From Chiloscyllium plagiosum (taxonomy: Eukaryota), in the NCBI RefSeq assembly GCF_004010195.1, contig NC_057752.1, positions 13,840,011 through 13,873,956 on the forward strand: 33,946 bases of DNA. The letters are read 5' to 3'. This document shows positions 4,435 through 30,273 of this stretch, piece by piece. Made by a program: the position numbers and the translations under genes. Below the pieces are notes generated by a model that worked only from the letters and a program-made list of their open reading frames with translations, was not told the origin of the DNA and ran no database searches. Each line of letters starts with the position of its first letter. The first letter of the stretch is position 1.

Positions 4435-4520
4435 GATGCCAGAACTGCTTACCCCAACTCAAAAATGGCTATTGCAAGCAAATGCTCTTTAGGCATGTAC
4501 TATCCCAGTCTCATCACCAC

Positions 4521-5079: not shown

Positions 5080-5236
5080 CCCAATCCCACCCTCCTCTAG
5101 CTTATCTCTCCACGCTTCAGGCTCTCTGCCTTTATTCCTGATGAAAGGCTTTTGCCCGAAACGTTGATTTTGCTGAAGCTCCTCAATGCTGCCTGAATTG
5201 CTGTGCTCTTCCAGCACCACTAATCCAGAACCTGGT
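5080..5236 (+). mobile_element. Penelope-like element terminal (pLTR) fragment with a hammerhead motif at ~5134-5169
   Basis: Near-identical to 13680-13757; contains CTGATGA-aggc tttt gccc-GAAACGTT. Confidence 0.75.
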
Positions 5237-5807
5237 TATTGGGCTCCAAGTGACTGGGTCACTATGTTCCCCCTGGCAATGGTGGATGTGTTTTATCTGT
5301 ATTCAGGATCTACCAGCCTTTCATTAATACCCTGCCTGTCTTATCAGGAAAGATACGGCTGTTACGTTATGAGGAGCTGACTCATCATAGATGGGATTGG
5401 TGGAATCCTGAGCTTTCCAATGGATTGCAGCATCAAGGTCAAACTATTTAGGGATCGACTCTGTGGCATTTGTGGCATTGCGAAACCTGCTGAGTTTACA
5501 ATCTAGAATGCATGCTACCTCAAGACTGGCTCCCTTTGTCCCCACCGCACCTAACTTTTACCTGGAAATGGATTTACCGTGGTGCTGACAGATCCTCAAA
5601 CACTTCCTGTCTGGCCCGCCATCGGTATTGTTTGTCTGTTGGGAATATGCCCTGGCACCTGGTCAGATTTGTGGGTGGGCTGAGGTTTGTCCCATCGGGA
5701 ATGGGCACTGTAAGTGGATCTAAACAACTCGGCAATGATACAGGAAAGGACAGGGAGGCTAAAACCCCAAGTAATTGGTGAGATTTGTCCCTTTCTTGTC
5801 CAAATAT

Positions 5808-6205
5808 TAGAACATTGAACACTACAGCACAGGAAGGGGCCCTTTGGCCCACCATATTGAGCTGAACATGACGCCAAATTAAACTAATCTCCTCTGCCTG
5901 CCCTTGGCCCATATCCCTGTATTCCCTACATGTTCATGTGCTAATCTAAAAGTCTCTTAAAAGTCCATATCGTGTCTGCCTCCACCACCACCCATAGCAG
6001 CTCGTTCCAGACTCTTTATTTAAAAAAATCTGCCCCTCACATCTCCTTTGAACTCTCCCCTCCTCATCTTAAATGCATGCCCCCCAGCTTTCGAGATTTC
6101 GTCTCTGGAAAAAAGATTCTGACTGTTAACCCTATCTATGCATCTCGTCATTTTGTAGACTTCTATCAGCCTCTGCTACTCCAGAGCCTCTCCTTATAGC
6201 TCAGC
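5808..6205 (-). mobile_element. CR1-type LINE 3' fragment
   Basis: Shares the CR1 3'-end pattern (acagcacagga..ggcccttt/cggccc; ccatatccct; gcctccaccacc) with other copies in the window. Confidence 0.7.
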
Positions 6206-6212
6206 CCCTCTT

Positions 6213-6539
6213 GGGCGGCACGGTGGCACAGTGGTTAGCACTGCTGCCTCACAGCGCCAGGGGCCCAGGTGCAATTCCCGCCTCAGGCAACTGTCTGTGT
6301 GGAGTTTGCACGTTCTCCCCGTGTCTGCGTGGGTTTCCTCCGGGTGCTCCGGTTTCCTCCCACAGTCCAAAGATGTGCAGGTTAGGGTGAATTGGCCATG
6401 CTAAATTGCCCGTAGTGTTAGGTGAAGGGGTGAATGTCGGGGACTGGGTCTGGGTGGGTTGCTCTTCGGAGGGTCGGTGTGGACTTGTTGGGCCGAAGGG
6501 CCTGTTTCCACACTGTAGGGAATCTAATCTAAACTAAAC
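6213..6539 (+). mobile_element. Full-length HE1 SINE (tRNA-derived V-SINE of elasmobranchs)
   Basis: tRNA-like head gggcggcacggtggcacagtggttagcactgctgcctcacagcgccaggg with A/B-box-like motifs, conserved core, CR1-like tail gggccgaagggcctgtttccacactgta and (aatct)n end. Confidence 0.92.
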
Positions 6540-7154
6540 CCCTTCCACACCCTCTCCTTAGCCTCCACATCTTTCCTGTAATGTAGTGACCAGAATTAAT
6601 GTTAAATTGACCTTACTGAATGATGCTTCAGCTCTACTGGTAGCACTCATATCTCTGAGTGAGGAAAGTGGTGGGTTGGAGTGTCCTGACACAGACTTAA
6701 GCACAAACATGTGAACTGGTATTTTCATAGGGTACAAATGGCTGTTCAGCATTTGTCTTCTCCCAGATGTCCACTTCATTTCCCAGACCTGGCGAAGCTT
6801 ATTGGCTTAAAAACGGAAGCACTGCTTTCAAACTACCATGGCACGGAGCCCGGACTCATTTAATGAACGTCACAGGGACTACAGCCCTCAAGAAATCAAT
6901 CCCATCTTCCTGGCAATAAAGTCTTTGAAATCCGGAAAATTTACAAGGTGTGGAGTACAATAAAGTCACATCAGTGTTGACTGGCAGGGCATTTATGAGA
7001 ATTTGTAAAGTTGTCTCCATGAGGGAGAGAAAGAGAGCGTGTTACTGCAGGAAGAGTGCCTGCTTTATCCCATGGTATTCGCAGTCCTTAGCTCACATCT
7101 CTCACAACAGCTTCCAAATCACTTGACATCTCACCTCTTTGAATCCGTACAAGT

Positions 7155-7448
7155 GTAGAAGCAGGCCATTCAGCCCATCGAGTCCACGCTGACCCTCCAA
7201 AGAGCGTTCTCCACCCCCCCCCCAAAAACCTTGCATTTCCCACGGCTAATCCACCTCGCCTGCACAATTTAGCAAGGCCAATCCACCCCAACCTGCACAT
7301 TGTTGGAGGGAATCAGAGCACCTCAAGGAAATCTGCACAGACGCGGGGAGAATGTGCAAACTCCACACAGACGGTCGCCCGAGGCTGGAATCGAACCTGG
7401 GTCCCTGGCGCTGTCGGGCAGCAGTGCTACCCACTGAGCCACTGTGCC
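7155..7448 (-). mobile_element. HE1-like SINE
   Basis: Reverse complement of the HE1 head (ggcacagtggctcagtggg..cagggacccaggttcgattccagcctcggg) and core. Confidence 0.85.
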
Positions 7449-7960
7449 AGCCCCTTGTGCAGCCCTCATCTTAATAGCTCCAGTATCAGCCATCATGCCT
7501 TTCAGCTGTCGAGCCCCTAAACTGTGGGAATCTCTCCTTAAACCTCACTATCCCCTCTCTCTTTCACCTTTAAAATTCACTTTAAAACCTTTGACAAAGC
7601 TTTTGATCATCCGCTCTATTATTTCCCTAAGTGGCTCAGTATCAAATTTTGCTTCATAAATGCCAGCAAAGTGCCTTGAGACATCTGATTATGTTAAAAT
7701 GCTGCAAAAATGCGAGTGATGTTAGCTCTTGAATGCTTGCATGTTTCTTTGGGTGTGAGTGCCTGTATATCTGTGAACACAAACGTGCATTTGTGCAGGA
7801 GTGTATACCCGAGTGGCATATACCTCCCCAGTGCAGATAACCATGTGTATCTGCCTGAGTGTGTCGACATGACTGCATATCTGTGGGTGCATATACTGTA
7901 TATATGCACATAGGAACAGCAGTAGGCCATTCAGCCCCTCAAACCTGTTCCTCCATTCAA

Positions 7961-8148
7961 AGACAGAAGTCGCACGACACAAGGTTATAGTCCAACAGGT
8001 TTATTTGGAATCACAAGCTTTCAGGGCGCTGCTCCTTCGCCTGATGAAGGGGCAGCGCTCCAAAAGCTTGTGATTTCTAATAAACCTGTTGGACTATAAC
8101 CTGGTATCGTGTGACTTTGCCCACCCCAGTCCAACACTGGTACCTCTA
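7961..8148. mobile_element. Fold-back PLE-derived insertion with 10-bp TSD and degenerate hammerhead cores
   Basis: Inverted arms ggttatagtccaacaggtttatt..cacaagcttt / aaagcttgtg..aataaacctgttggactataacc; TSD ctccattcaa at 7951-7960 and 8149-8158. Confidence 0.8.
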
Positions 8149-8185
8149 CTCCATTCAATGAGATCATGGCTGATCTGTGGCCTAA

Positions 8186-9931
8186 GGGTGACTAAGAGGG
8201 TAACTGGACAAAGGAAAGAAGTTATGCCTGGAGTCAGAGAAAATGGGTGAGATTCTTAATGAGTACTTTGCCTTGAGGAGAGGGTCATGATGGATGTTGA
8301 ATTTAGGGATAAGTGTTTGATTGCTCTAGGTCAAGTCGACAGATGGAGGGAGGAAGTGTTGGGTGTTCTAAAAGGCATTAAGGTGGACAAGTTCCCAGGT
8401 CTGGATGGGATTAATCCAGGTTACTGAGGGAAGTAAGAGAGGAAATAGCTGGGCCCTTAACAGATATCTTGAACACGGGTGAGGTCCCAGAGGACTGGAG
8501 AATTGTTAATGTTGTCCCCTTGTTTAAGAAGGGTAACACGGATAATCCAAGTAATTATAGACCGGTGAGCCTGACGTTAGTGGTAGGGAAGCTGCTGGAG
8601 AAGATACTGAGGGATAGGATCTATTTACATTTGGAAGAAAATGGGCTTATCAGTGATAGGCAACATGGTTTTTTGCGGGGAAGGTCATATCTTACCAACT
8701 TAATAGAATTCTTTGAGGAAGTGACAAAGTTGATTGATGAGGGAAGGGCTGTAGATGTCATATACATGGACTTCAGTAAGGCATTTGATAAGGTTCCCTA
8801 TGGTAGGCTGATGGAGAAGTGAAGTTGCGTGGGGTCCAGGGGGTACTAGCTAGACGGATAGAGAACTAGCTGGGTAACAGGAGGCAGAGAGTTGTACTGG
8901 AAGGGAGTTTCTCAAACTGGAGACCTGTGACCAGTGGTGTTCCGTAGAGATCCTTGCTGGGACCACTATTGTTTGTGATATACATAAATGATCTGGATGA
9001 AGGCATAGGTGGTCTGATTAGAAAGTTTGCAGATGACACGAAGATTGGTGTAGGGGAAGATAGTGAAGGAACTGTCAGAGAGTGCAGCAGAATATAGATA
9101 GATGGAAGAGTTGGGCAGAGAAATGGCAGATGGAATTCAATCTGGGCAAATGCGAGGTGATGCATTTTGGAAGATCCAATTCCCAAGCAAACTAGACCGC
9201 AAATAGAAAAGCCCTGAGGAAAATTGATGTACAGAGAGATCTGGGTGTTCAGGTCCATTGCCACCTTCAAGGAACAACGCAGGTCGATAGAGTGGTCAAG
9301 AAGGCATACATCGGATGGGGTATTGAGTACAAGGGTTGGCAGGTCATGTTACAGTTGTATAGGACTTTGGTTCGGCTACATTTGGAATACTGCGTACAGT
9401 TCTGGTCGCCACATTACCAAAAGGATGTGGATGCTTTGGAGAGGGTGCAGAGGCGGTTCACCAGGATGTTGCCTGGTAAGGAGGATGATTTGAGTAAATG
9501 AAGAGAGGTTGAGTAGATTAGGATTATTTTCATTAGAAAGAAGGAGGTTGAGGGGGGTGACCTGGTTGAGGTCTACAAAATCATGAGAGATATAGACAGG
9601 GTGGATAGCAAGGAGCTTTCTCTCAGAGTAAGGGACTCAATTACTTGGGGTCACGTGTTCAAGGTGAGAGGGGAAAAGTTTAAGGGAGATATGCGTGGAA
9701 AGGTTTTTATGCAGATGGTGATGGGTGCCTGGAACACGTTGCCAGCGGAGGTGGTAGAGGTGGGCACAATAGTGTCATTTAAGATGTATCTAGACAGATA
9801 CATGAATGGGCAGGGAGCAACGGGATACAAATCCTTAGAAAATAGGTGACAGGTTTAGATAGAGGATCTGGATCAGCGCAGGCTTGGAGGGCCGAAGGGC
9901 CTTTTCCTGTGCTGTAAATTTCTTTGTTCTA
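8186..9931 (+). mobile_element. CR1/HER1 LINE, 5'-truncated ORF2 (reverse transcriptase) plus 3' UTR, with stops and frameshifts
   Basis: GEVPEDWRIVNVVPLFKKG..NYRPVSLT..QHGF..DFSKAFDKV; KFADDTK at ~9023-9043; LEYCVQFWSPHYQKDVDALERVQRRFTRM. Confidence 0.95.
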
Positions 9932-10019
9932 ATTACATAGGCCTGCCTTTGGCCCATATCCATTAATACCTAAGCTTAACAACAAAAAAATGCACCGCAG
10001 ACTTAAAATTAACAACTGA

Positions 10020-10210
10020 AATACATACATGCGAATGCATATATGTCTGTGTGTGTATATATGCACATGCAATTGTGTATATGTGTAAGTGTGTGTAGGT
10101 GAGTATATACGAGCGTGTATATGTGAATATACATTTGTGTATGCATGTATATCTGAATGAGTGTGTACATGTGTGTATCAATATACATGGGTATATGGAT
10201 ATGTGAGAGT
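10020..10210. repeat. Degenerate (TA/TG)n low-complexity repeat (a similar tract at ~7750-7910)
   Basis: Alternating purine-pyrimidine runs gtgtgtatatatgcacatg... Confidence 0.75.
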
Positions 10211-10759
10211 TTGTGTTTTATAATTTGTCCTTTTGTTCATTCACCCAGTTCTCACATGTTTCTGCCCTACCTTCTCCCCTTCAGGCACTGCCGGTCTCCC
10301 TTGTTTACAGCTTGTTTGTGTTCAAGCCCACACAGTGCCAAGGACAATGTAGCAGAGCCCGATAACATCTTTGACCCAGGTTGCCATTGAGAGGCAAGAT
10401 CAGAAAGCCTGGCAGCCAGTGAAACTCCCAGAGCTGGTCATTGCTGAGTTTGTTCATCAGGATTTTACAGTTGGTCCCTTGGCCACAGCATTATTTCGCT
10501 CTGAATGAGGGTCGCCGGACTTGAGGCATTAACTCTGTTTCTCTGTTTCGGTAACAAAGATTTTGTACCTGAGATGGTGCGGTGTACACTTCTCCCTGTA
10601 CTCTTACACTTGAGTACACATGACAATAAAACCACAACCTAAATCTCGATCTAATCTCAGCACATATGCTGTCAGACCTGCTGAGTTTCCCCAGCACTTG
10701 CTGGTTTTGGCCAGGTTTCCTGCTTCTGGTCATTATTCAGTAACATTTCAGATTCGTCG

Positions 10760-11050
10760 GAGTAGTACTGTTGTCTTGACATCAGGTATTCGTGATTTTA
10801 AGCTCCAGACTAAAGACTTGAGAAGGTAATCTGGGCTGATGATGCCACACTGCTAATTGCCCTTCCAATGAGGGCCTGTCTGATCTCTTAGCAGGATGTA
10901 GATGATCCCAAGGCACGAATATTGAAGGTTATGACATCCCAACCAATACTTACCACTTCGACTGACGTCAGAAAACCAATTCTCTGGGCCATTATCAGAT
11001 TGTTGTTGATAGGAGCCCCCTGTGGACAGGTTTGGTACCACATTTCGATA
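10760..11050 (+). mobile_element. Old SINE, probably DeuSINE-type (related pieces at ~6625-6725 + and ~21810-21990 -)
   Basis: Degenerate tRNA-like head followed by gggcctgtctg..ggatgtagatgatcccaaggcac, resembling the Deu-domain; recognised from memory only. Confidence 0.45.
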
Positions 11051-11074
11051 TTAAGAAGGAAAAAAGACATTGTT

Positions 11075-11375
11075 AATTTATTCATAGGATGTGGGCAGCC
11101 CAGACCAGGCCAGCATTTATTGTCCATCCCTAATTGCCCAGAGGGCAGCTAAGAGTCAACCACATTGGCTGTGGGTCCGGACTCACATACAGTTCAGAAC
11201 AGGTAAGGAGGGCAGTTTCCTTCCCTAAAGGACACTAGTAAACCAGGTGGGTTTTTCTGACAATGGATTTGTGGTCATCATTCGACTCTTAGTTCCAGGT
11301 TTTATTGCATTCAAATTCCACCATCTGCTGGGTTCCCGGAACATACCTGGACCTCTGGGTTACGAGTCTAACAAT
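11075..11375 (-). mobile_element. Second tRNA-derived SINE family copy
   Basis: Reverse complement matches 13085-13350, 22320-23240 and 32200-32535 (ctggttcac..cctttagggaaggaaa..gactccagacccacagcaatgtggttgactct). Confidence 0.75.
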
Positions 11376-11606
11376 AAAACCAAATATTTATCGTCTTTCA
11401 CAATCCTGGGACATACTACAGTGCCAATTCAGTAAGCCAAACGCAGAGGTGGGGTGGATGGGAAAGCATCAGTTCCATTAGCAGAAGGGTTAATAACCAG
11501 GGTGGGGCATCTATTTAAGTTTGAAGGTGAAGAGAAGAGTTGGCAAGAATTGGTTTCTGGGGAACTCACTGCCTGAACAGACAGATAAGGGAGAAGCTTT
11601 TGTAGT

Positions 11607-12126
11607 GGGCGGCACGGTGGTTAGCACTGCTGCCTCACAGCACCAGAGACCTGGGTTCAATTCCTGCCTCAGACAACTGTCTGTGTAGAGTTTGCACATT
11701 CACTGCGTGGGTTTCCTCCCACAGTCCAAAGATGTGCAGGTTAGGGTGAATTGGCCATGCTAAATTGCTGAAAATGTGTTGCTGGAAAAGCGCAGCAGGT
11801 CAGGCAGCATCCAGGGAACAGGAGAATCGACGTTTCGGGCATAAGCCCTTCTTCAGGAATGAGGAAAGTGTGTCCAGCAGGCGAAGATAAAAGGTAGGGA
11901 GGAGGGGCTTGGGGGAGGGGCGTTGGAAATGCGATAGGTGGAGGGAGGTCAAGGTGAGGGTGATAGGCCGGAGTGGGGTGGGGGCGGAGAGGTCAGGAAG
12001 AAGATTGAATGCTAAATTGCCCATAGTGTTGGGTGAAGGGGTAAATGTAAGGGAATGGGTCTGGGAGGGTTGGTGTGGACTTGTTGGGCTGAAGGGCCTG
12101 TTTCCACACTTTAAGTAATCTAATCA
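11607..12126 (+). mobile_element. HE1 SINE interrupted by a PLE insertion
   Basis: HE1 head at 11607 and tail at 12021-12126; continuity is restored when 11769-12020 is removed. Confidence 0.88.
11769..12008 (-). mobile_element. PLE pLTR fragment with 12-bp TSD and a hammerhead motif (11825-11860)
   Basis: TSD atgctaaattgc at 11757-11768 and 12009-12020; minus strand reads attc-CTGAAGA-a-gggc ttat gccc-GAAA-CGTC-gatt. Confidence 0.85.
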
Positions 12127-13350: not shown

Positions 13351-13359
13351 GGTTAAAAA

Positions 13360-13757
13360 CAATGACTGCAGGTGCTGGTTCCAAACTTCCAGCTCAGCAC
13401 TGTCCCCATGACGCCTGGAGGAAGAACGCCTCATCTTCCGCCTCGGAACACTTCAACCCCAGGGCATCAATGTGGACTTCAACAGTTTCCTCATTTCCCC
13501 TTCCCCCACCTCACCCTTGTTCTAAACTTCCAGCTCAGCACTGTCCCCATGACTTGTCCGGACTTGTCCTACCTGCATATCTCCTTTTCCACCTATCCAC
13601 TCCACCCTCTCCTCCCTGACCTATCACCTTCATCTCCTCCCCCACTCACCCATTGTACTCTATGCTACTTTCACGCCACCCCTACTCTCCTCTAGCTTAT
13701 CTCTCCACGGTCTAGGCTCTCTGCCTTTATTCCTGATGAAGGGCTTTTGCCCGAAAC
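13360..13757 (+). mobile_element. Penelope-like element 3' end: GIY-YIG C-terminal remnant plus pLTR with hammerhead core, cut by the gap
   Basis: From 13412 it reads RLEEERLIFRLGTLQPQGINVDFNSFLI (typical PLE endonuclease C-terminus); CTGATGA-a-gggc tttt gccc-GAAAC at 13733-13757. Confidence 0.85.
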
Positions 13758-14173: not shown

Positions 14174-14700
14174 CCCGTATTCTCCCCGTAGCCCTTAATT
14201 CCTTGTGATATCAAGAATTTATCAATTTCTGCCTTGAAGACATTTAGCGTCCCATCCTTCCACTGCACTCTGTGGCAATGGATCCACAGGCCCACCACTC
14301 TCTGGCTGAAGAAATGTCTCCGCATTTCTGTTCTGAATTTACCCCCTCTAATTCTAAGGCTGTGTCCACGGGTCCTAGTCTCCTCGCCTAATGGAAACAA
14401 TTTCCTAGCGTCCACCCTCTTCAAGCCATGTATTATCTTGCACGTTTCTATTAGATCTCCCCTTAATATTCTAAACTCCAATGAATATAATTCCAGGATC
14501 CTCAGCCGTTCCTCATATGTTAGACCTAGCATTCCAGGGATCATCCTTGTGAATCTCCGTTGGACACGCTCCAGTGCCAGTATGCCCCTCCTGAGGTGTG
14601 GGGACCAAAACTGGACACAGTACTCCAAATAGGGCCTAACCAGAGCTTTATAAACTCTCAGTAGTACAACAATGCTTTTATATTCCAACCCTCTTGAGAA
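14174..14700 (-). mobile_element. CR1 LINE 3' ORF2 fragment
   Basis: YKALVRPYLEYCVQFWSPHLRRGILALERVQRRFTRMIPGM..LRGDLIETCKI..TRGHSLRI. Confidence 0.92.
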
Positions 14701-14709
14701 AGCTTTGAC

Positions 14710-15900
14710 CTCACGATGGGACGGGCGGGGGAGGGGAGGTGCTTATTTGCTCCGATGGGTCATTTATGTGGAATTTTTAACTCTTCGTTTCTCTCTGTCC
14801 ACATTCCTATTCTAGGTTCGAGATATTTTTACACATCTGTGGAGTGGCTCGGACCTGAGGCCGGCAACAAGACCCCAGATCTGCTTCTTTTGACTTGTGT
14901 CAGGGTCAGGGCGACCGCAAAAGGGGTCAGAGAGGTGAGCGCACGCCCTGTTGACGGCTCTCTGCAGCATCTCGTCAACATTGAGCACGCCGCGGGAGCG
15001 GAAGGGTTACAATGTACAGCTCGAGTAACAAAAAAGGTCAAAGCCGAAAGGCCCCTCCCCTCCTGGGGGCTGGTTATTTGTGAATGCAATCCGTGAGAAG
15101 GCGGAGTGATCTCTTCTTGTCGATTTCACTCTGTGAGGCGGCCCCGTAGCTGGTTAATTTCACCCCCCCCCCCCTCAAAATCCTCTCGTCAGTTTCACCC
15201 GCGCTGCATCTCCCGGGCGATGGCAAGCTGCAGGAATGGCTAAAAGCTACCCGTTTTATGCGGTCTTTTTACTCTTGAACGTCCACACCGGCGCCGGTAA
15301 GTTCTCTCAGGGAGTTCACCTGCTTGTTGGGGGAAGGAAGAGGACGGCGCCCCGGGTCTTGTTTGTTTTTGAGAGAGGAGGAGGAGGAGGAGGGGGAGGT
15401 GTTGCTAAAGCAAACATAAAGCGTCCAAAATATTTATTTACATCTCTGTTCTCGCAACATGGCGCCCGGAATCGGATACAATGTTGTTACAAGGGGCTGG
15501 GACCTCGAGAGATTTGCCAAAAATAAGAGGAGCTAGTGAACCGCTTGGATTTAGACCCGCATTGTGTGTGTGTGTGTGTGTGTGAGATCTCTCTCGCTTC
15601 CATTTTCATGGATGCTTTGTCTTAATTGTTGCGACTGGTTTAAACAATCCAGCTTGTTTTCCCTCTTCCCACCCATGCGCGCACACACACACACACACAC
15701 ACAGGTATTTTCTTCCTACCAGGGGCTTTTGTCTGGCCCTGCTGAGCGAGTCCCAGATCACAATGGATCTCTTTCTCCCACCACCCCTCCACTTTAATTG
15801 TTTCCCCCGCACGTCACCAGTTCTGTGTCAATCCGGTGAGGGGGAGTCAGATCTTTATTATCAGAGAAAGAGGGGGGCGGGGGTATTTTCTGAGATTAGG
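14710..15900. promoter_or_regulatory. CpG-rich, transposon-free putative promoter / first-exon region
   Basis: Visibly higher CpG density than the flanks; YY1-like AACATGGCG at ~15456-15464; consensus donor CCG|GTAAGT at 15297 (+); (GGA)n, (TG)n and (CA)n tracts. Confidence 0.55.
15563..15703. repeat. (TG)n (15563-15584) and (CA)n (15682-15703) microsatellites in inverted orientation
   Basis: Direct observation. Confidence 0.85.
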
Positions 15901-16334
15901 TGTTTAATTGGTGACTTCCAGTCAGTACTAACATGAACACCTCACCAACACAACGCCCGCTTCTTCTCTCCCCCCTGGTCTGGTTTCATTGGGTTTGGAC
16001 TGTGTCCCGGTGTGACCCCTGCTTTCTAACTGAGTGAGAATGATGAGCACTGATGTAATTTTTTTTTCTGGGTTCGGTTCCTTTTTTGAACCTCCTGTCT
16101 CCCCCGCTTGTTGTGTTTTTGGGGTTTGAGGTGCCTGTGCCCCCTGGGCACTTTGCCCAAAAAGTGCCCATTTTTGTTTTGGTGGGGTGGTGTTTGTGAC
16201 CCTGGCCAGTGAGTCCTGGGTCACCACAATGCTGTGTTGATAAAACATGCCTTTTTGTTTTTAAAAGAAGAGTTACCAAAAGGCTCAGATTTGTTTATTT
16301 TTTCAAATTTCTTTACTTTCAACTAGTCAGAATT

Positions 16335-16980: not shown

Positions 16981-17459
16981 CTAAACCCACCTTTCACTTC
17001 CTATGGACGTGACCACTGATGTTACACCAATTCTTTTTTTTTTTACTCTTCCTTGGATCCAACCATTCGCTGGGTACTCCTTTGCCTTCCCACAATGCAA
17101 TTGTAGCTCAAACCCAGGCCGGAGTTGGGGAAATATTATCTATTACAGAGACTGGCATGTACACGTGCGCACAGACATGCACCATGACACCACCACCTTT
17201 TTTTTTGAGCGCAATGCTACAGTTGACTTTGTGTTGGGACCACTTTGGGGAAGGAGATGATATTGATAGGAAAAGGAAGATAGGTGCTCCGTTTTCACTT
17301 TGAAACTGCCGGCCCAAAAATGAAGTCTGAACAAGTGCCAACTTGTTGTCTTGCTCCAACGAGAACATCTGAAAATGCTGAAGAAACGCAGCAGGTCTGA
17401 CAGCATCTGGGGAAGAGAGAAACTGAGTTAATGTCGAGCCCAGTGACCCTTTAGAACTA

Positions 17460-18995: not shown

Positions 18996-19145
18996 TTCAC
19001 AGGAGGAGTACTTTAAACGTTCTAATATTCAAGGCCACGGGCTGGATGAACCCACCCACAGACCCCCCCCACCCTCCCAAACAATCCAGGCTTGACGACT
19101 GGACCTCGGAGCCGAAGAGGTGGATAATGAAATGCAGAAACATGC

Positions 19146-19379
19146 CTTTCTCCTCTTGCAAGGTGAGATTGCGGTTGCACAAGTTCCCTTTGCAGCACAC
19201 GATGCGGAGGTGAGGCCACGAATATTCACAGGGTAGATCCTGATATGGATGGCAGCCCTTCCGAATCTGACCCGGAATCCGGCTGTCGACCGAAACAAAG
19301 CACTGCACTCCGCTACAAGTCTCCGTTTTACAATAGCCATGCTCACAAACACACTCGAACCTCACGGCCTCCTGCTCAC
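19146..19379 (-). CDS. ACVRL1: Internal coding exon (phase 1-1, 234 nt): extracellular three-finger ligand-binding domain of a TGF-beta/BMP type I receptor, ALK1/ALK2 subgroup (ACVRL1-like; ACVR1 not excluded)
   Basis: Translates EQEAVRFECVCEHGYCKTETCSGVQCFVSVDSRIPGQIRKGCHPYQDLPCEYSWPHLRIVCCKGNLCNRNLTLQEEK, with 10 Cys, a CCx4CN cysteine box, a KGC motif and an NLT sequon. The CxCx4Cx4Cx4C spacing is as in ALK1, while some residues (CVCE, QCF, CNRN) resemble ALK2. Acceptor is ttgtctatttctcgcttacAG (AG at 19381-19380); putative donor AAAG|GCATGT at 19145. The family call is strong; the symbol is tentative. Confidence 0.85.
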
Positions 19380-19429
19380 CTGTAAGCGAGAAATAGACAA
19401 AACTTGGCAATGTCACAGTGAAATGGGCC

Positions 19430-19660
19430 CCCAGGGAATCTTGGATGCTTCAATAAGGTCACCTCTCCTCCTTCTAAACCCCAATGAGTCCAGGCTCAAC
19501 CTCTCCTCACGAGACTGTCCCTCCATACCCAGGATCAGCTGAGTGGACCTTCTCTGGGCTGCCTCCAATGTCAGCCTGTCTTTCCTCAGGGAAAGGGGCC
19601 CAAACCTGTCCACAGTATTCCAGGTATAGTATAGCAAAATCTCCCTATTTTTATAATCCA
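19430..19660 (-). mobile_element. CR1 LINE fragment immediately upstream of the receptor exon
   Basis: LRKDRLTLEAAQRRSTQLILGMEG..RRRRGDLIEASKI; near-identical to 17810-18060 and 33480-33725. Confidence 0.85.
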
Positions 19661-22319: not shown

Positions 22320-23240
22320 AGCCGAGTGATGTTATCACTGGATTGTCAATCCTGAGACCCAGATAATGTTCTGGGGAAAAACAACAAAGGCTGGAGATAA
22401 GTGGGCCAGACAGCATCCACGGAGGGAGGGTAAGCTAACATTTCGAGTCACGATGACTCTTCATCAGAGCTGAAGTGGGGGGGGACAGCATTTATGCTAC
22501 AGTTCAGGGCGGAGGTGGTGGGTGCAGGCTGCTGGTGGGGAGAAGATGTTAATAGCTTCCATTAAGTGATCGGGATGTGAGCAAGGCACCCCATCATTCT
22601 GCCAGACTGGGAAGGACAGACAGTCCCACTGGAGTGGGAGGGGGGAGAGGAGGAGGACATGATTACAAGCTGAAAGAAATGGGAGTTGGTTCACAATTTT
22701 TTTAAAAGGTGCTTGAAGGCTGCCTGGATCTGGCAGTATCTCATCACTTGGAACACGGCCTTCTGGTCCACTCTCACTGACAGTCTGGTGGGTAAGAACC
22801 CCCCCCCAAATTCCACTCTGTCCTTCCCAGTCTGGGAGGTAGACACACCATTGTTCTGCTGTTCTCTCATTCCAATCACTTAATCTGAGCTCGCAACACC
22901 CTTTCGCCCCCAGCACAAACCTCCAAACTATTGCACATGTGTTGCCCCCTCCACTCTTCGGCTCTGAAGAATCGTGTGTGATCTCCAGCCTTTGTTGTCT
23001 TTGGTATGGATTCCAGCAGCTGCAGTAATTTGTTCCTCCATAATGTTCTGGGGACCCGGGTCGAATCCCACCATGGCAGATAAAATTAAAACCTGGAATT
23101 GAGGAGCAAACTACGACAGTGAATCTGTTGTCGATTGTTGGAAGAACTCATCTGGTTCACCTAATGTCCTTTGGGAACCATCCTTGCCTGATCTGGCCGA
23201 CACATGATTCCAGACCCACAGCAAGGTGATTGACTCTTGA
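22320..23240 (+). mobile_element. Second-family SINE interrupted by a PLE-derived fold-back insertion
   Basis: SINE head to 22377 resumes at 23040. Confidence 0.75.
22378..23039. mobile_element. PLE-derived insertion with inverted pLTR arms, 15-bp TSD and a hammerhead motif (22432-22471, minus)
   Basis: TSD ataatgttctgggga at 22363-22377 and 23040-23054; inverted acaacaaaggctggagat / atctccagcctttgttgt; minus strand agct-CTGATGA-a-gagtca tcg tgactc-GAAA-TGTT-agct. Confidence 0.8.
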
Positions 23241-23428
23241 TACAACAAAAACCTAGAAGTTAGGAAGAGGCCATTTGGCCCTGCACTGCTATTCTTCGCA
23301 ATAATGGGTGATCATCCAACTCCACAGCCTAATTCTGCTTTCTCCCCATAACCTTTGATCCCATTTGCCCTAGTGCTTTATCTAGCCATCTCTTGAATAT
23401 AGCCAGTAATGCCACCTTCCCATGAATG

Positions 23429-23609
23429 GTGGGTGGCACAGTGGTTAGCACTGCTGCCTCACAGCNNNNNNNNNNNNNNNNNNNNNNNNNNNNNNNTTAG
23501 GTAAGGGGTAAATGTAGGGGTATGGGTGGGTTGCACTTTGGCAGGTCGGTGTGGACTTGTTGGGCCGAAGGGCCTGTTTCCACACTGTAATGTAATGTAA
23601 TCTAATCTA
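23429..23609 (+). mobile_element. HE1 SINE spanning a 31-N gap (23466-23496)
   Basis: Head ggcacagtggttagcactgctgcctcacagc; tail gggccgaagggcctgtttccacactgtaatg(taatc)n. Confidence 0.85.
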
Positions 23610-24419
23610 AAAAACAAAATCACGGGACTATATGTACAGCATACATTTTCGTGACAACTTATTAGAATTGTTACTTTCTGAGATACTGACATTTTGCCTG
23701 CAACCCTTCCTCCCCATTTCTGACTATGCTGAATCACTGTGTGGTTTACTGTACCGTCCTCCCAGCACAAGAATAGTTAGCCATAAAAATATTGGATAAA
23801 GGCTTTGCAGGGACAACTAGCTTGGCGCTAAATTGGTACGCAGGTACCTACTGTCTCCGAAGGGTGGTTAAAGAATACCTGAGGAAAAGAAAACGTTCTT
23901 TTTTGTTGGTTCATCTTGCCACCAGGCTGTGAGGTCAACTTGCATTGTGTCACCCTTTGTGTTGTCTCCTGTCTCACATCAGAGTTGGGTTTAACCCCTT
24001 GCGTGCCCCGTGAGCCTCTTGCCCAACTGCGTGCTTGGAGGTGCCATCTTTGTTTGGCCTCTTCGTGCCGGAAGTTTCCACAGAGAGGGTTTGTGTAGAA
24101 AAGTGGGACTTGGTTGCAAAAGCAAAATGTTACGGGATGTTGGGAATCGGGAATATGGATGCTAAAAGGTGTGGGAGGATGGAAGCAAAAAGGGTCAGGG
24201 TTCCTGACTGCTCACCGTTTAGCCTGTCTTTTGGGTTTTGGGTGAGCGTAAGAAAATACAGACTCTCTGCAGGCAAGGTTAGCACACACTATGACTTACC
24301 TACCAGACTTTGAGTGGACCAGACGGCCTTGTTCCAAGTGATGAGATGCTGCTATGCCCCATGATTGCAGGCCAGGGCTGGCAGGGGGTTAACAGGGAAG
24401 GAGTTCAATGCTTTCAGCA

Positions 24420-25505
24420 GTGGCGCAGGTGACTTATTTTCTCTTCTCGTCCGTGTGTAAGGATACTAGTGAGAGAGGTCCTGTCTAGTTGATGGTCATG
24501 TATCCTGGTGGCTTGTTTTCTGCCTGTTTGCCCAATGTAGTGTTTGTTACAGTCATAGAGTTGTAGAGATGTACAGCATGGAAACAGACCCTTCGGTTCA
24601 ACCCCTCCGTGCCGACCAGATATCCCAACCCAATCTAGTCCCACCTGCCAGCACCCGGCCCATATCCTCTGGCAGCTCATTCCATACACGTACCACCCTC
24701 TGCATGAAAACGTTGCCCCTTAGGTCTCTTTTATATCACCCTAAACCTATGCCCTTGAGTTCTGGACTCCCTGACCCCAGGGAAAAGACTTTGTCTATTT
24801 ATCCTATCCGTGCCCCTCATGATTTTATAAACCTCTATAAGGTCACCCCTCAACCTCCAATGTTCCAGGGTTAACAGCCCCAGCCTGTTCAGCCTCTCCC
24901 TGTAGCTCAAATCCTCCAACCCTGGCAACATCCTTGTAAATCTTTTCTGAACCCTTTCCAGTTTCACAACATCTTTCCGATAGGAAGGAGACCAGAATTG
25001 CACGCAATATTCCAACAGTGGCCTACCTTGTAAGGTATTTTGTAAATGACATTAGTTTTGCTTGTTGCCTGTATAGGGTCTTAAGTTCATTTAGCTGCTC
25101 TTTTTAGTGTGTTTGTGGGCTACTATGATACCAAGGAGTCTTGAGTAGTCTGGCAGTCATTTCCGAGATGCCTTTGATGTAGGGGAGAGGTGGCTCGGGT
25201 TTCTGGGTGCGTTCTGTCTGCTTGTTGGGGTTTGTTGCTGAAAAATTGGCAGACTTTGTTCATTGGGTTGCCTGTTCTTTTTGAATATGCTGTATAGGTG
25301 ATTTTCCGCTGCTCTGCGTAGTTAACATCACCAACCCAAGGAAACCTAAACTCATAAATGGAAAGTGGGCCATGCCACCAGTGCTTCATCCAGAGGCACA
25401 CTGAAGATGTTACCTAGTATGGTGACGAAACGACTGAAAATGAACCTTCCAGCTCAGTGAGCAAACCTGCATCCAGGACCTCCACCTGAGCTACAAATCT
25501 TCTCG
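24420..25505 (-). mobile_element. Penelope-like element remnant (GIY-YIG endonuclease region) with an inverted pLTR piece at ~25325-25505
   Basis: KTNVIYKIP (above 25026) joins DCNKHYIGQTGRKQATRIHDHQL (below 24555), giving the GIY..YIG motif; plus-strand hammerhead-like CTGAAGA-t-gttacc..ggtgac-GAAACGAC at 25401-25434. Confidence 0.85.
24555..25025 (-). mobile_element. CR1 LINE 3' fragment inserted into the PLE GIY-YIG motif
   Basis: EYCVQFWSPSYRKDVVKLERVQKRFTRMLPGLEDLSYRERLNRLGL..LRGDLIEVYKIMRG. Confidence 0.92.
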
Positions 25506-25589
25506 TAATGTGATTTTAGACACAAGGGTGGTTGTTGGGGTGGGGCAGGGGTGGGGTTGGTACAAAGCTGGATTAAACAAAGGACCTTC

Positions 25590-25850
25590 TTGTGGCGCAA
25601 CAGTAGTGTCCCAACTTCTGGGCTGGGAGGCCCAGGTTCAAGTCTCGCCTGCTCCAGAGGTGCGTCATTACATCGCCGAATCGGTCGATTTGGAAAAAGC
25701 TCTGTTTACGCTGGGAACTGAAAAACAAAGTTTAACTCTACCCTCTAATGGATGCAGTGGTGTCCCTATCTCTGAGCCTGGAAGGCCCAGGCTCAAGATC
25801 CAGGGGTGTGTCGTAACCTCTCCGAACAGGTTGGTTCGGAAAATAGGTTA
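25590..25850 (+). mobile_element. Two adjacent short tRNA-head SINE-like units (~25590-25700, ~25750-25850)
   Basis: Both read cagt.gtgtccc.a...ctg.gc.gg.aggcccagg.tcaag..ccag.ggtg.gtc.t.ac.tc.ccgaa..ggt. Confidence 0.55.
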
Positions 25851-26157
25851 AATGATTTTTTTTTTTTAAAACAAAAAAAGATTTAAACCGAGCTGTCAGT
25901 ATGGCCAATGGCTTGTGAATAACAGGGGCTGAAAATGCCCCAACGGCTTTTGGGTTGAGAATATCTTGATACTTTTTTGCCTCTTCCATACAGCAGAAGA
26001 TACAAGAGTGTACGGACAATTTTAAGAACCAGTTTCGTCCGCAGTTATTTGACTTCTGAACTGACCTCTCAAGATATTAGAGTTGATCTTTCTTGGCACT
26101 TTGGCTGTAACCCTATATGCTACCTTCTGATCTGTTGCCTGATGTCATTATGAAATG

Positions 26158-26290
26158 ATGTGGAGAGCTGGGGTGGACAAAATTGAAAATCTCTCCAACA
26201 CCCAGATTACAGTCCAACAGCTTCATTTGGAATCGTGAGCTTTGAGCTGTTGGACTATAACCTGGTGTTTGTGAGTGTTTTATTTTGTAT
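26158..26290. mobile_element. Internally deleted fold-back PLE derivative
   Basis: aacacccagattacagtccaacagct / agctgttggactataacctggtgtt inverted arms; same family as 7961-8148 and 30036-30273. Confidence 0.65.
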
Positions 26291-27139
26291 TTTTAAACTT
26301 ACGCAAGGTATAGTTTGTCTGGTTAGCACATAGTACAATACTTTGCACCGTATCTAGGTACACGTGACATTAATAAACCAAATCAGATCAAAAAGTGTGG
26401 AAATGTAATTGTGGGGAGGGGGGGGGGTGAAGAGCAGAAGATTGATGCTTGACTGGCGGTGTGTGCTCATTGTTCTCTCTGTGACCTCTCGAGAAGTTTG
26501 CTTGAGGCCGTTGGAGTTTAAGAGCTGTAAACAGGATTAAGCAAGTGATAGGGATCCAGCGCTGTGGAACAATCGAGGTCCTGTTTTGGATGCGTCTCCC
26601 TAGACATCACTCCCAAACTGCCTAGACACATTGACTGAAAGCCAGAAGGTGATCACAAACTGTTTTGTGGTGGTTTTGAAAAACATTCTTGCCCTCTGTC
26701 AACTCCCCTCTGTGCTGCTTGGCCTACTCTTGTCCTCCAGTCTCTGCATTCTTGCTAATTCCGGCCTCCCTGGAGCATCACTCGCTTTGTCTTCACTGCT
26801 TTCAGCTTCCTGGATTCCAAGTTCTGGAATTCCCTCCCAAATGCTTTCCATGCAAAACACAAGTTTTTGCTGTGCCTACGTACATGTGCCAGTAATAATT
26901 TTTTTTAAAAAAAAATCCATCTTTTAGAAAATTTGAGATGCTTATGAAATCTGCCCCCTGGATCAAAGGTTTGATCCCCAGTCTTTAATATGCCTCTATC
27001 TATTTTGTTTAAACCTTGGGAGGGTGGGGTGGAGGTTACATTTTTTTCTTAATATCCTGGAACAGCTATGAAATGTGAATTCAGTGTGTCATGGGAGGAA
27101 TTTCTGGCTCCAAATTTCCCCTGTTTCCAGGATATTACT

Positions 27140-27612
27140 CAGTTGGATGGGCTTCAGAAGAGATTTTACCAGGATGCTGCCAGTAACAGAGGGTTTGAGA
27201 GGCTGAGACTTTTTTCACTGGAGCACAGGAGGCTGAGGAATGACCGTCTCAAAGCTTTATAAAATAATGAGAGGTATAGATCAAGTTAATGGGAGCTGTT
27301 TTTTTTCCCTAGGATGGTGGATTTTGAGACTAGGGGGCACGTTTTTAAGGTGAGAGGAGAGAGATTTTAAAAAAGACATGAGGCATTTTTTTTTTACACA
27401 GAATGGTTTGCGTGTGGAATGAACTTCCTGAGGAAGTGGTGGATGTGGGGGCAGTTACAATGTTTAAAAGGCATTTGGATAAGGACATGAATAGGAACGG
27501 TTTGGAGGGATATGGGCCAGGAGCAGGCAGGGTGGGACTAGTTTAGCTTGGGATTAGGGTCGGCATGGACTGGTTATAACAAAGGGTCTGTTTCCGTGCT
27601 GTATGACTCTAA
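27140..27612 (+). mobile_element. CR1 LINE 3' fragment
   Basis: cagaagagattttaccaggatgctgcc..ggagcacaggaggctgagg..ggtctgtttccgtgctgtatgactcta. Confidence 0.85.
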
Positions 27613-28559
27613 GTTGAAGATGGGGCTTTGTACCTCTTCCACTTCACTATTTTGCAACCTCTAACTCCCTTTTTGAATTTTATTTTTCTTGTCCCTGCTT
27701 GCATATCCGTGTTGCAGGATTCTTGCTTTTTACTGGGCTACAATGTGTCACCCAGTATTCTGAGGACGTGGCTATATTAAGACTGTGTGTGAGATCAGTG
27801 TTGATTAGTGAGACAGTTACAAATGAGCCCGTGCACACTCTCAATCCTTATCGCTCAGGCAACTAGGGATGAAGCAGCTTGCTCTTATCACATATCTAAC
27901 ATTCTCCTGCCCACACAAGGGTGATGAAATCAGCATGACATTGGACGTGGAGTGGAAAATCTAGCTAACACCAAATCTGCATCTGCCCCTTAGGGCATCC
28001 GATGAGCCATAAACCAGTTTCCCTTTTTGTGCAAGTCTCAATTTTTTTTTTTTTTTGTCTGACTTTTATTTTTGCTAGTGTTTGCTTTGGCTGCTTGTCC
28101 AATTTTGCGTGTGCAGTCTTCAGCTGCTTTCTCCTGTCTCGAATCTTGTTATGTTAACGTTTTGTCTCTGAGTGAGAATTTGTTGGGAGGAACCAGCATG
28201 AGAAATGAACACAGCATGTTACAGCGCTGTACAGGCCCTTCGGCCCTCGATCTTGCGCTGACCTGTGGAACCAATCTGAAGCCCACCTAACCTACACTAT
28301 TCCATTCCCATCCATATGTCTATCCAATGACCATTTAAATGCCCTGAAAGTTGGCGAGTCGACAACTGTTGCAGGCAGTATGATTTCTGCTTCTTGGTTT
28401 TAAAATTTATTTGTGGACGACTCACTTTACTGGTTTCACCAAAAAAAAAATCGCAGTTGGCATGCTCTTGATTTGTGAATAGTATTTGTGTGCAAGGTTC
28501 AGTGCCTTTTTTATCCACTGAGCTATTCCTCCACATGCAAGGTGACCCCTGATATGAGG

Positions 28560-28769
28560 AGAAAGTGAGGTCTGCAGACGCTGGAGATCAAAGCTGAAAC
28601 TTTATTGCTGGAACAGCACAGCAGGTCAGGCAGCATCTAGGGAACAGAAGATTCGACGTTTCGGGCACATGCCCTTCTTCAGGATTCCTGAAGAAGGGCA
28701 TGTGCCCGAAACGTCGAATCTTCTGTTCCCTAGATGCTGCCTGACCTGCTGTGCTGTTCCAGCAATAAA
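28560..28769. mobile_element. Young fold-back PLE-derived insertion: perfect 86-bp inverted repeat and 18-bp TSD
   Basis: 28599-28684 is the exact reverse complement of 28686-28771; TSD gtgac[c/t]cctgatatgagg at 28542-28559 and 28770-28787. Confidence 0.9.
28683..28720 (+). ncRNA. Minimal type I hammerhead ribozyme (predicted cleavage after C28715); mirror copy on the minus strand
   Basis: Stem I gattc/gaatc, core CTGAAGA, stem II gggc-atgt-gccc, GAAA, palindromic ACGT stem III, GUC cleavage triplet. Confidence 0.75.
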
Positions 28770-28905
28770 GTGACTCCTGATATGAGGCTTGGTTTACATA
28801 GGCTTAGCCTTTAAGGATTGTGTTTTGTGTGTGTGTGTGCATGCCTGAGTGGAGACTACAAAGGTATTGTACACCACCTTGCCTCTGATCACCTGAAGCA
28901 CCGTT

Positions 28906-29400
28906 CTCTCACGCTCACTGCACAACACCCAGGTTACGATCCAACAGGCTTATTTGGGAGTGGTGCTGCTTCAGGTAACTGTGTGGCAAAGGATCATAAG
29001 ACACAGAATTTATTGCAAATTATTAGAGTCCTGCGACTGAAGCGATATATTGAACAAACCTAGATTGCTGTTAAGTCTTTCATCTTTGAGAATGGGCTGT
29101 TGGTTTCTGTTTGTTCATATGTAAATCCCAGAACATTGCTCAAGTCACATTCTCAAGAAAACCTTCAGGTTTTCTCTGTGATTGTTTGCTATAAATTCTG
29201 TGTCTTATGATCCTGCTCCACAGCTACCTGATGAAGGAGCAGCGCTCCGAAATAAGCCTGTTGGATCGTAACCTGGGTGTTGTGCAGTGAGCGTGAGAGT
29301 ACATTGCTTCCAAAGAAACTTGTTGTACTATAACCTGGTGTTGTGACTTTTTTTAATAAGCCTTTTTCCTCCCCAGTCCAACACCAGCTCTTCCACATCA
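28906..29400. mobile_element. PLE-derived element with long inverted arms and a partial hammerhead (29228-29252)
   Basis: Perfect 50-bp IR 28906-28955 / 29250-29299; inner imperfect IR 28971-29019 / 29185-29231; pLTR tail to ~29400. Confidence 0.8.
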
Positions 29401-30035
29401 TGGCTAACAGCAGCAGGTTCCCCATAACTGCCTACTGGCTTCGTGGTCGCCCAGATGCTAATGTCTGCCAGGAATGTAATGCTTGGAAATAACGGTTGTT
29501 GTAATTGCAATGACAAAAAACACCGGTGTGGAAAGGCTTCTGACTCAGACCCACGACCTGAGCTGTGGCCTTCTGCCTTAGTCAAGTACAAACCCATTGG
29601 AGCACCAGTTTCTGAGCCCTGATGCAGCCCCTGTCCCAAGCTCTTGGTGTAATAAGTATCTGTGGATCCTTCAATACAATGACATCTGGTCCCAGTTTCT
29701 TGTTATAGGAATAATGTAATCAGTGCCATTTCAGGTAAAACACCCTGCTGGATGCTAATTTGCACCAATTAGCCAAAAAAAATCCAAAAATGAGAAGGTC
29801 TTGGAGTGTTGCTGAACAAAGAGACCTTGGAGTGCAGGTTCACAGCTCCTTGAAAGTGGAGTCACAGGTAGATAGGATAGTGAAGAAGGCGTTTGGTATG
29901 CTTTCCTTTATTGGTCAGAGTATTGAGTACAGGAGTTGGGAGGTCATGTTGCGGCTGTACAGGCCTCTGTCCAATTTTGGGTCTCCCTGCTGTCGGAAGG
30001 ATGTTGTGAAACTTGAAAAGATTTACAAGGATGTT

Positions 30036-30273
30036 TTGGAGATGCCGGTGTTGGACTGGGGTGTACAAAGTTTAAAAATCTCAACACCAGGTTATAGTCC
30101 AACTGGTTTAATTGGAACCACTAGCTTTCAGAGCGTTGCTCCTTCATCAGGTGGTAGTGGATAGGATTGAGCCCTCCATTACCCCCGATGAAGGAGCGTC
30201 ACTCTGAAAGCTAGTGCTTCCAATTAAACCTGTTGGACTATAACCTGGTGTTGTACACAAGTTAAAAATCTCT
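30036..30273. mobile_element. Fold-back PLE insertion with 10-bp TSD
   Basis: TSD caag[g/a]atgtt at 30026-30035 and 30274-30283; inverted arms caacaccaggttatagtccaac..ctagctttcagag / ctctgaaagctag..gttggactataacctggtgttg. Confidence 0.82.
30117..30155 (-). ncRNA. Minimal type I hammerhead ribozyme (CUA triplet)
   Basis: Minus strand accac-CTGATGA-a-ggagc aac gctct-GAAA-GCTA-gtggt: 5-bp stem I, stem II with one GU pair, palindromic AGCT stem III. Confidence 0.7.

What the first reader, a model, noticed from the sequence alone, without database searches (positions are those of the whole stretch)
5134..30215. Dense set of hammerhead-ribozyme-bearing Penelope-derived mini-elements, with several sequence variants
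Seen: the core CTGA[T/A]GA-N-hairpin-GAAA recurs at ~5138 (+), 11825-11860 (-), 13733 (+), 22432-22471 (-), 25401 (+), 28650-28720 (both strands), 29228 (+) and 30117-30155 (-), with decayed copies at ~8015-8070, ~17430-17455 and ~30185. Stem II differs between families (gggc/gccc, ggagc/gctcc, gagtca/tgactc, gttacc/ggtgac) yet stays paired, which is covariation around an invariant core. Established: PLE pLTRs carry minimal type I hammerheads whose very short palindromic stem III is thought to need dimerisation. Inference: this genome hosts several lineages of small non-autonomous ribozyme-carrying retroelements (retrozyme-like) that would add cleavage sites to intronic RNA on both strands.
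Basis: partly seen in the sequence, partly recalled or inferred. Interest (0 to 1): 0.75.

Follow-up and report, generated by a model that had tools for sequence, protein, structure and literature searches.

The report
Short Penelope retrotransposon stubs carrying hammerheads
The ribozyme motifs are real but are the ends of ordinary Penelope-like jumping genes, found over 100,000 times in this genome, and their sharply shared start point likely marks where the element's capped RNA begins, which would help explain how these elements copy themselves.

Summary
Observation confirmed: 8 hammerhead (HHR) cores against 0.1 in shuffles, in four sequence families. Only 4 of 12 sites have a complete motif, and 3 of those sit in long hairpins. 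They are not retrozymes. Three families run straight into Penelope-like element (PLE) coding sequence, the window holds no tandem array, and copies rarely begin at the cleavage site (2 of 80). Three exact patterns give 100,101 matches genome-wide (about 300,000 extrapolated); the window is only about 2.7-fold richer than average. Opposite-strand pairs, one-sided tails and family-level covariation are published PLE traits, and this scan noted such palindromes before on other DNA. The added signal: short copies start 4-8 nt before the core, usually behind a G the element does not encode, and 103 of 107 head-to-head pairs carry the tail on exactly one arm. Best reading: these are reverse transcripts of the first ~90 or ~125 nt of a capped, uncleaved PLE RNA, with palindromes likely made by priming twice on one RNA. 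Fold-back copying remains a serious rival. Known kind; modest mechanistic interest.

The parts
5086..5230 (+). Family A1 PLE end, 5'-truncated about 50 nt before the core, no tail; HHR at 5138 with A.C mismatch at first stem II pair
7967..8146 (.). Family B head-to-head palindrome; + arm core at 8041 broken (G12>A), - arm ends inside the core; TSD 7951-7963 / 8149-8161 (12 of 13)
10490..10710 (+).
11767..12006 (-). Family A2 end with ~150 nt of upstream element sequence, complete HHR at 11856, no tail; inserted in a SINE-like repeat with 12-bp TSD (11757-11768 / 12009-12020)
13400..13757 (+). Family A1 long copy: last 35 codons of the GIY-YIG ORF (100% identical to L050), 3' UTR, HHR at 13733 cut by an assembly gap
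17373..17455 (-). Decayed family C end, core lost
22377..23040 (.). Family C inverted pair: - arm with HHR at 22467 (one stem III change), decayed + arm ending with a tail-like stretch; 15-bp TSD (22363-22377 / 23040-23054)
24446..25323 (-). Family D coding fragment (RT-thumb to GIY-YIG-like), split by a LINE piece at ~24553-25025
25325..25504 (+). Family D end, inverted against the coding fragment; HHR at 25401 with U16.1>A
26168..26281 (.). Family B palindromic remnant without an HHR core
28560..28771 (.). Family A3 palindrome: 86-nt perfect arms, tail on the left arm only, complete HHRs at 28682- and 28688+, centre at the +1 site; 18-bp TSD (28542-28559 / 28770-28787, 17 of 18)
28895..29400 (.). 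Family B inverted pair with longer arms; HHR at 29228 lacks stem III (14-nt deletion)
30045..30257 (.). Family B palindrome: - arm with tail and complete HHR at 30150 (G.U first pair), + arm core at 30185 broken (U4>C)

Best explanation
These are separate insertions of the hammerhead-bearing end (pLTR) of at least three protein-coding Penelope-like retrotransposon families, and the many 90-130 bp ones are likely reverse transcripts of only the first ~90 or ~125 bases of a capped, uncleaved element RNA. Shown: long copies join the HHR to RT/GIY-YIG coding sequence; the same HHR unit also lies about 165 nt before an ORF start; short copies have unique flanks, target-site duplications, two preferred 3' ends (about +88 and +125 from the core) and one preferred 5' end at the first base of stem I. 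Inferred: transcription starts at that base; the enzyme primes internally near the RNA 5' end, runs to the cap and copies it as an extra base. Inferred, less firmly: palindromes form when both nicked target strands prime on the same RNA, one at the +125 site and one at the +88 site, and the two cDNA ends are joined. The ribozyme is a passenger in the inserted copies and is predicted to be mostly inactive in host transcripts.
For: Coding link: RVT_1 and GIY-YIG in L296 of family A (RVT_1 below its cut-off, GIY-YIG just above), window 13412-13519 identical to L050, B and D upstream pieces match that endonuclease (E 1e-6, 5e-5). HHR unit before the ORF start in L112 and L233. 5' ends: of 121 family A copies anchored on their 3' part (79 of 200 dropped for <85% identity), 45 of 66 still at risk end at -10..-1 (0.068 per nt) against 13 of 21 over -100..-11 (0.007 per nt); 30 solo copies have unrelated flanks apart from tail stubs, 7 with exact 9-14-bp flank matches. 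Extra G: family B encodes C before +1 (19 of 19 long copies); 3,293 copies have another base there, first 100 listed 67 G / 23 T / 10 A (counted by eye), about 13% of copies with G against 2% with A, using 18,217 as base; 22 of 25 non-long loci have G; A2/A3 encode C, first 100 listed 57 G / 29 A / 14 T. Control, first foreign base at truncations inside +1: G 6 of 29 (A), 0 of 15 (B). An extra G marks cap copying in full-length L1 insertions (PMC11702581). Uncleaved template: starts at the cleavage site 2 of 80 (A), 1 of 22 (B), as in vitro for the anole PLE (PMC11167929). Twin priming: tail on exactly one arm in 103 of 107 pairs, 54 of 55 in unselected DNA; the tail-less arm reaches further 5' in 44 pairs, the tailed arm in 15, 44 tie, so often neither arm contains the other; both arms begin G+1 in L361, L362; tail-less arms end where solo copies end; 3 clean tail-only stubs among 22 tailed arms; the anole enzyme extends both strands from two adjacent internal sites.
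Against: No transcription start was measured; one read lay showed no pile-up of read ends anywhere on an A1 copy (poly-A single-cell library, species match unknown, weak). In family A solos the G is often the last base of the target duplication (7 of 10 G solos) and in some palindromes it comes from the partner arm, so it is not always an added base; target preference could contribute. 5' ends spread over -10..+9, not one base, and L112 starts 6 nt before +1. An 8-nt deletion found only twice in the genome lies in both arms of one palindrome: that fits arm-to-arm copying or later conversion better than two separate syntheses, unless the RNA itself bore the deletion. Family D, also HHR-bearing, is mostly long (about 6 of 30 short, by eye). 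No coding partner was traced for family C. Controls for the G test are small.
Confidence: 0.6

Rival explanations
1. Same origin, but palindromes form by fold-back: one cDNA runs from the tail to the cap, hairpins on itself and is copied back, stopping short of the tail; centres are trimmed later.
For: Private 8-nt deletion shared by both arms; arms share subfamily loop in 45 of 55 pairs and are more alike (93%) than either is to the reference (91%); commonest A centre leaves a 3-nt loop.
Against: Tail-less arm reaches further 5' three times as often as the tailed arm (44 vs 15), often keeping G+1 while the tailed arm stops at +10 to +44 (L078, L030, L106); both arms full to G+1 in L361, L362; tail-less ends match solo ends; 2 of 107 pairs join different families.
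Confidence: 0.25
2. The shared 5' end is a reverse-transcriptase stall or template switch at the folded hammerhead on a long RNA (plain 5' truncation hot spot), or self-priming on an antisense transcript as proposed for rotifer PLEs; no cap is involved.
For: The boundary coincides with stem I; ends are spread over ~20 nt; PMC3846280 proposes antisense self-priming for head-to-head PLE repeats.
Against: A stall would be expected at the 3' side of the fold, not after it; family D has an HHR with few short copies; neither version predicts a G excess at one position in two unrelated families or 5' asymmetry in both directions.
Confidence: 0.12
3. One reading: self-propagating non-autonomous retrozyme-like mini-elements whose ribozymes cut host RNA.
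For: Very high copy number; the mini unit may hold promoter and priming sites, since Penelope has an internal promoter (PMC2377424), so some minis could be copied again; 11 same-strand neighbours within 1 kb among 160 hits; retrozymes are reported in one chondrichthyan genome (bioRxiv 2026.07.22.740005).
Against: No tandem HHR array in the window; copies are not cleavage-site to cleavage-site monomers; variable centres; long coding copies exist for A1, A2, A3, B, D; neutral decay within families; hairpin of -179.6 kcal/mol buries both cores at 28599-28771.
Confidence: 0.05

Closest known systems
[quoted passage not shown]
   Same: Core, extra base before stem II, G10.1-C11.1 pair, palindromic stem III positions, several covarying families per genome, mostly single truncated copies, pairs on opposite strands.
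   Different: Copy number: at least 100,101 exact matches here against about 4,000 (coelacanth) and 9,000 (Xenopus) with their descriptor; no cartilaginous fish in the text read; stem I here is only 3-5 bp and mismatched in A1/A2.
EN+ PLE insertions with inverted pLTR, one-sided 30-40-bp tail and TSD (PMC3846280, PMC8557442; Neptune and Penelope/Poseidon clades)
   Same: Head-to-head arms, tail on one arm, 9-18-bp TSDs, 5' truncation, RT then GIY-YIG; family A has a CxxxxCxxC linker like that described for Neptune.
   Different: Here about half of the young copies are reduced to the first 90-125 nt, with a fixed start and a G excess in front of it; neither feature was found in the passages read.
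Anole Poseidon element PAc (Frangieh et al. 2024, PMC11167929)
   Same: Two internal RT start sites bounding the tail; uncleaved RNA as template; both strands extended.
   Different: There the ORF starts within stem II; here (family A1) it starts ~165 nt after the core. The paper does not treat inverted insertions or the cap in the parts read.
Non-LTR retrozymes (PMC7229834; bioRxiv 10.64898/2026.07.22.740005)
   Same: Short, non-coding, HHR-bearing, PLE-related; axolotl has 126,247 motifs.
   Different: Retrozymes are tandem units with (mostly canonical) HHRs yielding monomer and circular RNA; these are solo or inverted stubs that begin before the core.
L1 twin priming and cap-derived extra G (PMC11702581)
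   Same: Second priming on the reciprocal DNA end gives an inversion; full-length 5' junctions carry an extra G.
   Different: In L1 the two pieces barely overlap; here both arms usually run to the same 5' end and duplicate it.

Membership tests
Minimal type I HHR of PLEs | Conserved core CUGANGA...GAAA with paired stem II | tested here: met
   8 sites vs 0.1 in shuffles; broken in 5 further sites
Minimal type I HHR of PLEs | Extra base after A9, G10.1-C11.1 pair, palindromic 15.2/16.2, UH triplet | tested here: met
   65 of 94 sample hits have the palindrome and UH, not part of the descriptor; 4 window sites complete
Minimal type I HHR of PLEs | Stem I of 4-5 bp | tested here: inconclusive
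   Predicted for 28688, 30150, 22467; not for 11856, 25401, 5138
Minimal type I HHR of PLEs | Self-cleavage as dimer or with protein help | not testable with these tools
   No assay; read lay uninformative
EN+ Penelope-like element | RT followed by GIY-YIG upstream of the repeat | tested here: met
   Family A; B and D by pairwise match only (no Pfam hit for those short pieces); family C not traced
EN+ Penelope-like element | Same repeat before the ORF start (pLTR arrangement) | tested here: met
   L112, L031, L233 for family A; not found for B
EN+ Penelope-like element | Inverted 5'-truncated copy, one-sided tail, TSD | tested here: met
   103 of 107 pairs one-tailed; window TSDs of 12-18 bp
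EN+ Penelope-like element | Transcription start within the pLTR | tested here: inconclusive
   Indirect only: boundary hot spot and G excess
EN+ Penelope-like element | Match to a curated Repbase/Dfam consensus | not testable with these tools
   No such library is offered
Non-LTR retrozyme | Tandem repeat of two or more units each with an HHR | tested here: not met
   None in the window; a few same-strand neighbours elsewhere, L112 is a partial tandem
Non-LTR retrozyme | Unit bounded by cleavage sites | tested here: not met
   2 of 80 and 1 of 22 start at the site
Non-LTR retrozyme | Monomer and circular RNA | not testable with these tools
   No suitable library listed
MITE-like palindrome amplified as one unit | One fixed centre and symmetrical ends shared by copies | tested here: not met
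   24 different centres among 31 family A loci; ends asymmetric

The most novel reading that the evidence does not exclude
The genome holds a fossil map of the PLE replication cycle: the hammerhead occupies the very first ~35 nt of a capped transcript (so cleavage would act as a decapping switch rather than a monomer cutter), the enzyme primes internally ~90 and ~125 nt from the cap, and priming at both sites on one RNA from the two nicked target strands makes the head-to-head, one-tailed insertions. This would replace the antisense self-priming model, in a genome with perhaps 300,000 hammerhead motifs, far denser than the axolotl.
Probability: 0.4. Interest if true: 0.62.

Novelty: new member of a known kind. 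Interest (0 to 1): 0.4.

Why it matters
As a catalogue item it is ordinary: PLE hammerheads, opposite-strand pairs and one-sided tails are published. It matters for two reasons. How PLEs build inverted repeats and what their ribozyme does are open questions (PMC3846280, PMC8557442), and tens of thousands of young stubs make them testable by counting: the G before a fixed start and the one-tail rule give sharp predictions for cap mapping and for the existing in vitro PLE system. Second, thousands of ~90-bp perfect palindromes (5,372 loci for one tight pattern) are a large predicted source of double-stranded RNA in host transcripts, a more likely effect on the host than ribozyme cleavage.

Tried and rejected
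Rfam finds no hammerhead; its models miss these minimal forms. Hidden-subfamily artefact for the 5' hot spot: rejected, solo flanks are unrelated (the script stopped before listing family B solos). A3 as a mini-only lineage: rejected, long A3 copies exist. G templated by A3: rejected, A3 encodes C. Splice acceptor at the hot spot (as in Drosophila Penelope): no AG precedes it in A or B (read). Cleaved RNA as template: no excess. Recurrent deletions at the cleavage site: one locus only among 282 A and 118 B copies. Tail-stub test: confounded by subfamily divergence at +80-89, so only 3 clean cases are counted. Expression: no RNA holder listed on record; one raw-read run laid 1,417 reads on both strands without end pile-ups, the other none; not used as evidence for or against cleavage. 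Host gene: Activin_recp in window 19000-19449 (-) and a weak GS-motif hit in L102 (+) among 150 of 413 stop-free stretches scanned; structure unresolved. A two-copy co-fold paired through stem II, not stem III, so it says nothing on dimer activity. Family C was not counted genome-wide. Lunse et al. 2017 is not held and is known only through PMC6765202.
Full report
Setting. The window is G000:C43:13840011-13873956 in a 3.56-Gb genome. The label 'shark' comes from my recall of its repeats and from earlier scan notes; it was not tested. Positions within an element are counted from the C of CUGA (0).

Observation. Four of 12 sites are complete (11856, 28682, 28688, 30150), one nearly so (22467), one is cut by a gap (13733), six are broken. 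Rfam has no matching model. Stem II, the first pair of stem I and the stem III palindrome (ACGU in A and D, AGCU in B) differ between families, but inside a family changes are mostly single and often break the pair: selection acted on the parent elements, not on these copies.

Scale. Exact patterns match 80,312 times (family A), 17,799 (B) and 1,990 (D), each with 0 for the reversed control. In 112 stretches of 10 kb taken at round coordinates on large contigs, 94 strict cores lie in 1,078,726 bases, about 300,000 genome-wide; the window's 8 compare with 2.9 expected (P 0.01-0.05). Published counts, with other descriptors, are about 4,000 and 9,000 for coelacanth and Xenopus and 126,247 for axolotl.

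Identity. Window 13412-13519 encodes 35 residues identical to the end of a GIY-YIG ORF in L050; L296 carries RT then GIY-YIG with a cysteine linker like Neptune's. B and D upstream pieces match that endonuclease weakly but clearly; the clade names for B (Neptune-like) and D (Poseidon-like) are recalled, not tested. In L112, L031 and L233 the HHR unit and tail run on into an ORF start about 165 nt after the core, so the unit is both the 3' repeat and the 5' leader, as for a pLTR. No coding partner was traced for C.

Shape of the copies. Anchored on their 3' part, young A copies (121 of 200 kept at 85% identity or more) end 5' ten times more often per base at -10..-1 than further upstream; B shows the same at about -8 (38 of 67 kept). 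Solo copies have unrelated flanks and often a target duplication. 3' ends fall at about +88 or +125. In the unselected sample 42 events are head-to-head pairs and 87 solos; one tight pattern finds 5,372 back-to-back loci. Centres vary (24 kinds among 31 A loci), so pairs are made anew at each insertion, as earlier scan notes also concluded.

The G before the start. Long B copies have C before ACAAYCAC (19 of 19). Genome-wide 3,293 copies have another base; the first 100 listed are 67 G, 23 T (5 of 7 T loci inspected were substitutions in long copies), 10 A. For A2/A3, which also encode C, the first 100 are 57 G, 29 A, 14 T. At truncations inside the start, G is the first foreign base in 6 of 29 (A) and 0 of 15 (B). 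For L1 an extra G at full-length 5' junctions reflects the cap, and Penelope's start lies in its pLTR. Against: in A solos the G is often the last base of the target duplication (7 of 10), some palindromic G bases come from the partner arm, and no RNA 5' end was measured (one search showed no pile-up). Copies beginning at the cleavage site are rare (2 of 80, 1 of 22), matching the in vitro finding that uncleaved RNA is the template.

How palindromes form. The tail sits on exactly one arm in 103 of 107 pairs (54 of 55 unselected). The tail-less arm reaches further 5' in 44 pairs, the tailed arm in 15, 44 tie; in L078, L030 and L106 each arm holds sequence the other lacks, and in L361 and L362 both arms begin with G+1. 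That fits two primings, at +125 and +88, from the two nicked strands, as the anole enzyme's two start sites and two-strand extension allow. But an 8-nt deletion found nowhere else in the genome is in both arms of one palindrome, and arms share subfamily marks (45 of 55 loops): both arms come from one template, and fold-back or later conversion is not excluded. The published proposal is antisense self-priming, stated as untested.

Ribozyme activity in place. The 28599-28771 palindrome folds into one hairpin (-179.6 kcal/mol, z -27); cores in the other pairs are also predicted paired. Minimal PLE HHRs show no monomer and low dimer cleavage, need protein in the anole element, and 8 of 9 predicted Xenopus dimers did not cut. 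No intact same-family tandem pair lies within 1 kb in the window. Cleavage of host RNA is therefore unlikely for most sites.

Literature seen. PMC4209133: parts 1-2 of 4; bioRxiv 10.64898/2026.07.22.740005: parts 1-3 of 5; PMC11167929: parts 1-2 of 4; passages only of PMC8557442, PMC3846280, PMC2377424, PMC11702581, PMC7229834, PMC6765202, PMC8969392, PMC6155905, PMC6431247; no supplements. Searches returned no listing that reports the G-marked start or twin priming for PLEs, nor a hammerhead count for this kind of genome beyond the 2026 preprint's one chondrichthyan; the library lacks most subscription journals, and Repbase/Dfam could not be checked. One earlier scan note already suggested that joins mark the RNA start; a word search for the cap signature found none.

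Verdict. Real, ordinary in kind, not retrozymes. New members of known PLE families whose sheer number exposes a likely transcription start at stem I and a one-tail rule that bear on an open mechanism. Interest 0.4.

Noticed in passing
L301, L302, L307, L308, L320 (upstream of the family B end): Five B copies, ~99% identical over 0.7-1.2 kb, carry a decayed family-A-like RT fragment in place of B's own upstream sequence: a chimeric, probably non-coding lineage that did spread, a better candidate for a true non-autonomous PLE than the minis.
   Followed up: partly
L112:5408-5900, L031:1080-1630, L023: Partial tandems in which HHR unit and the first ~45-55 codons of the ORF join the 3' UTR at three different points; L112 and L031 leave the ORF at the same place. 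Possibly a further internal switch site.
   Followed up: partly
L108 ~2340, L142 ~1528: Head-to-head joins of a family A end with a family B end, both tailed: insertion into an earlier copy or two RNAs in one event.
   Followed up: no
L371 (G000:C1:31161770-31161859): Both arms share a unique 8-nt deletion whose left edge is at the predicted cleavage site; a single case, could be a cut, trimmed and rejoined RNA.
   Followed up: yes
L321-L350: Family D has a TATA-like box ~45 nt before the core and mostly long copies, unlike A and B.
   Followed up: partly
window 19150-19385 (-); L102:3998-4408 (+): Exon-like stretch matching Activin_recp (E 1e-4) and, ~24 kb past the window on the opposite strand, a weak TGF-beta GS-motif hit: two receptor genes or a local inversion.
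   Followed up: partly
window 14700-16200: CpG-rich, promoter-like region read from the sequence.
   Followed up: no
window ~800-4500 (-): Broken gag/pol-like frames of an LTR-retroelement-type remnant (label recalled; two pieces gave no Pfam hit).
   Followed up: no
window 11767-12006 and 22377-23040: Both insertions split a SINE-like repeat, with clean 12- and 15-bp duplications.
   Followed up: partly
window 561-693: 2.5 copies of a 53-bp unit inside a SINE-like repeat.
   Followed up: no
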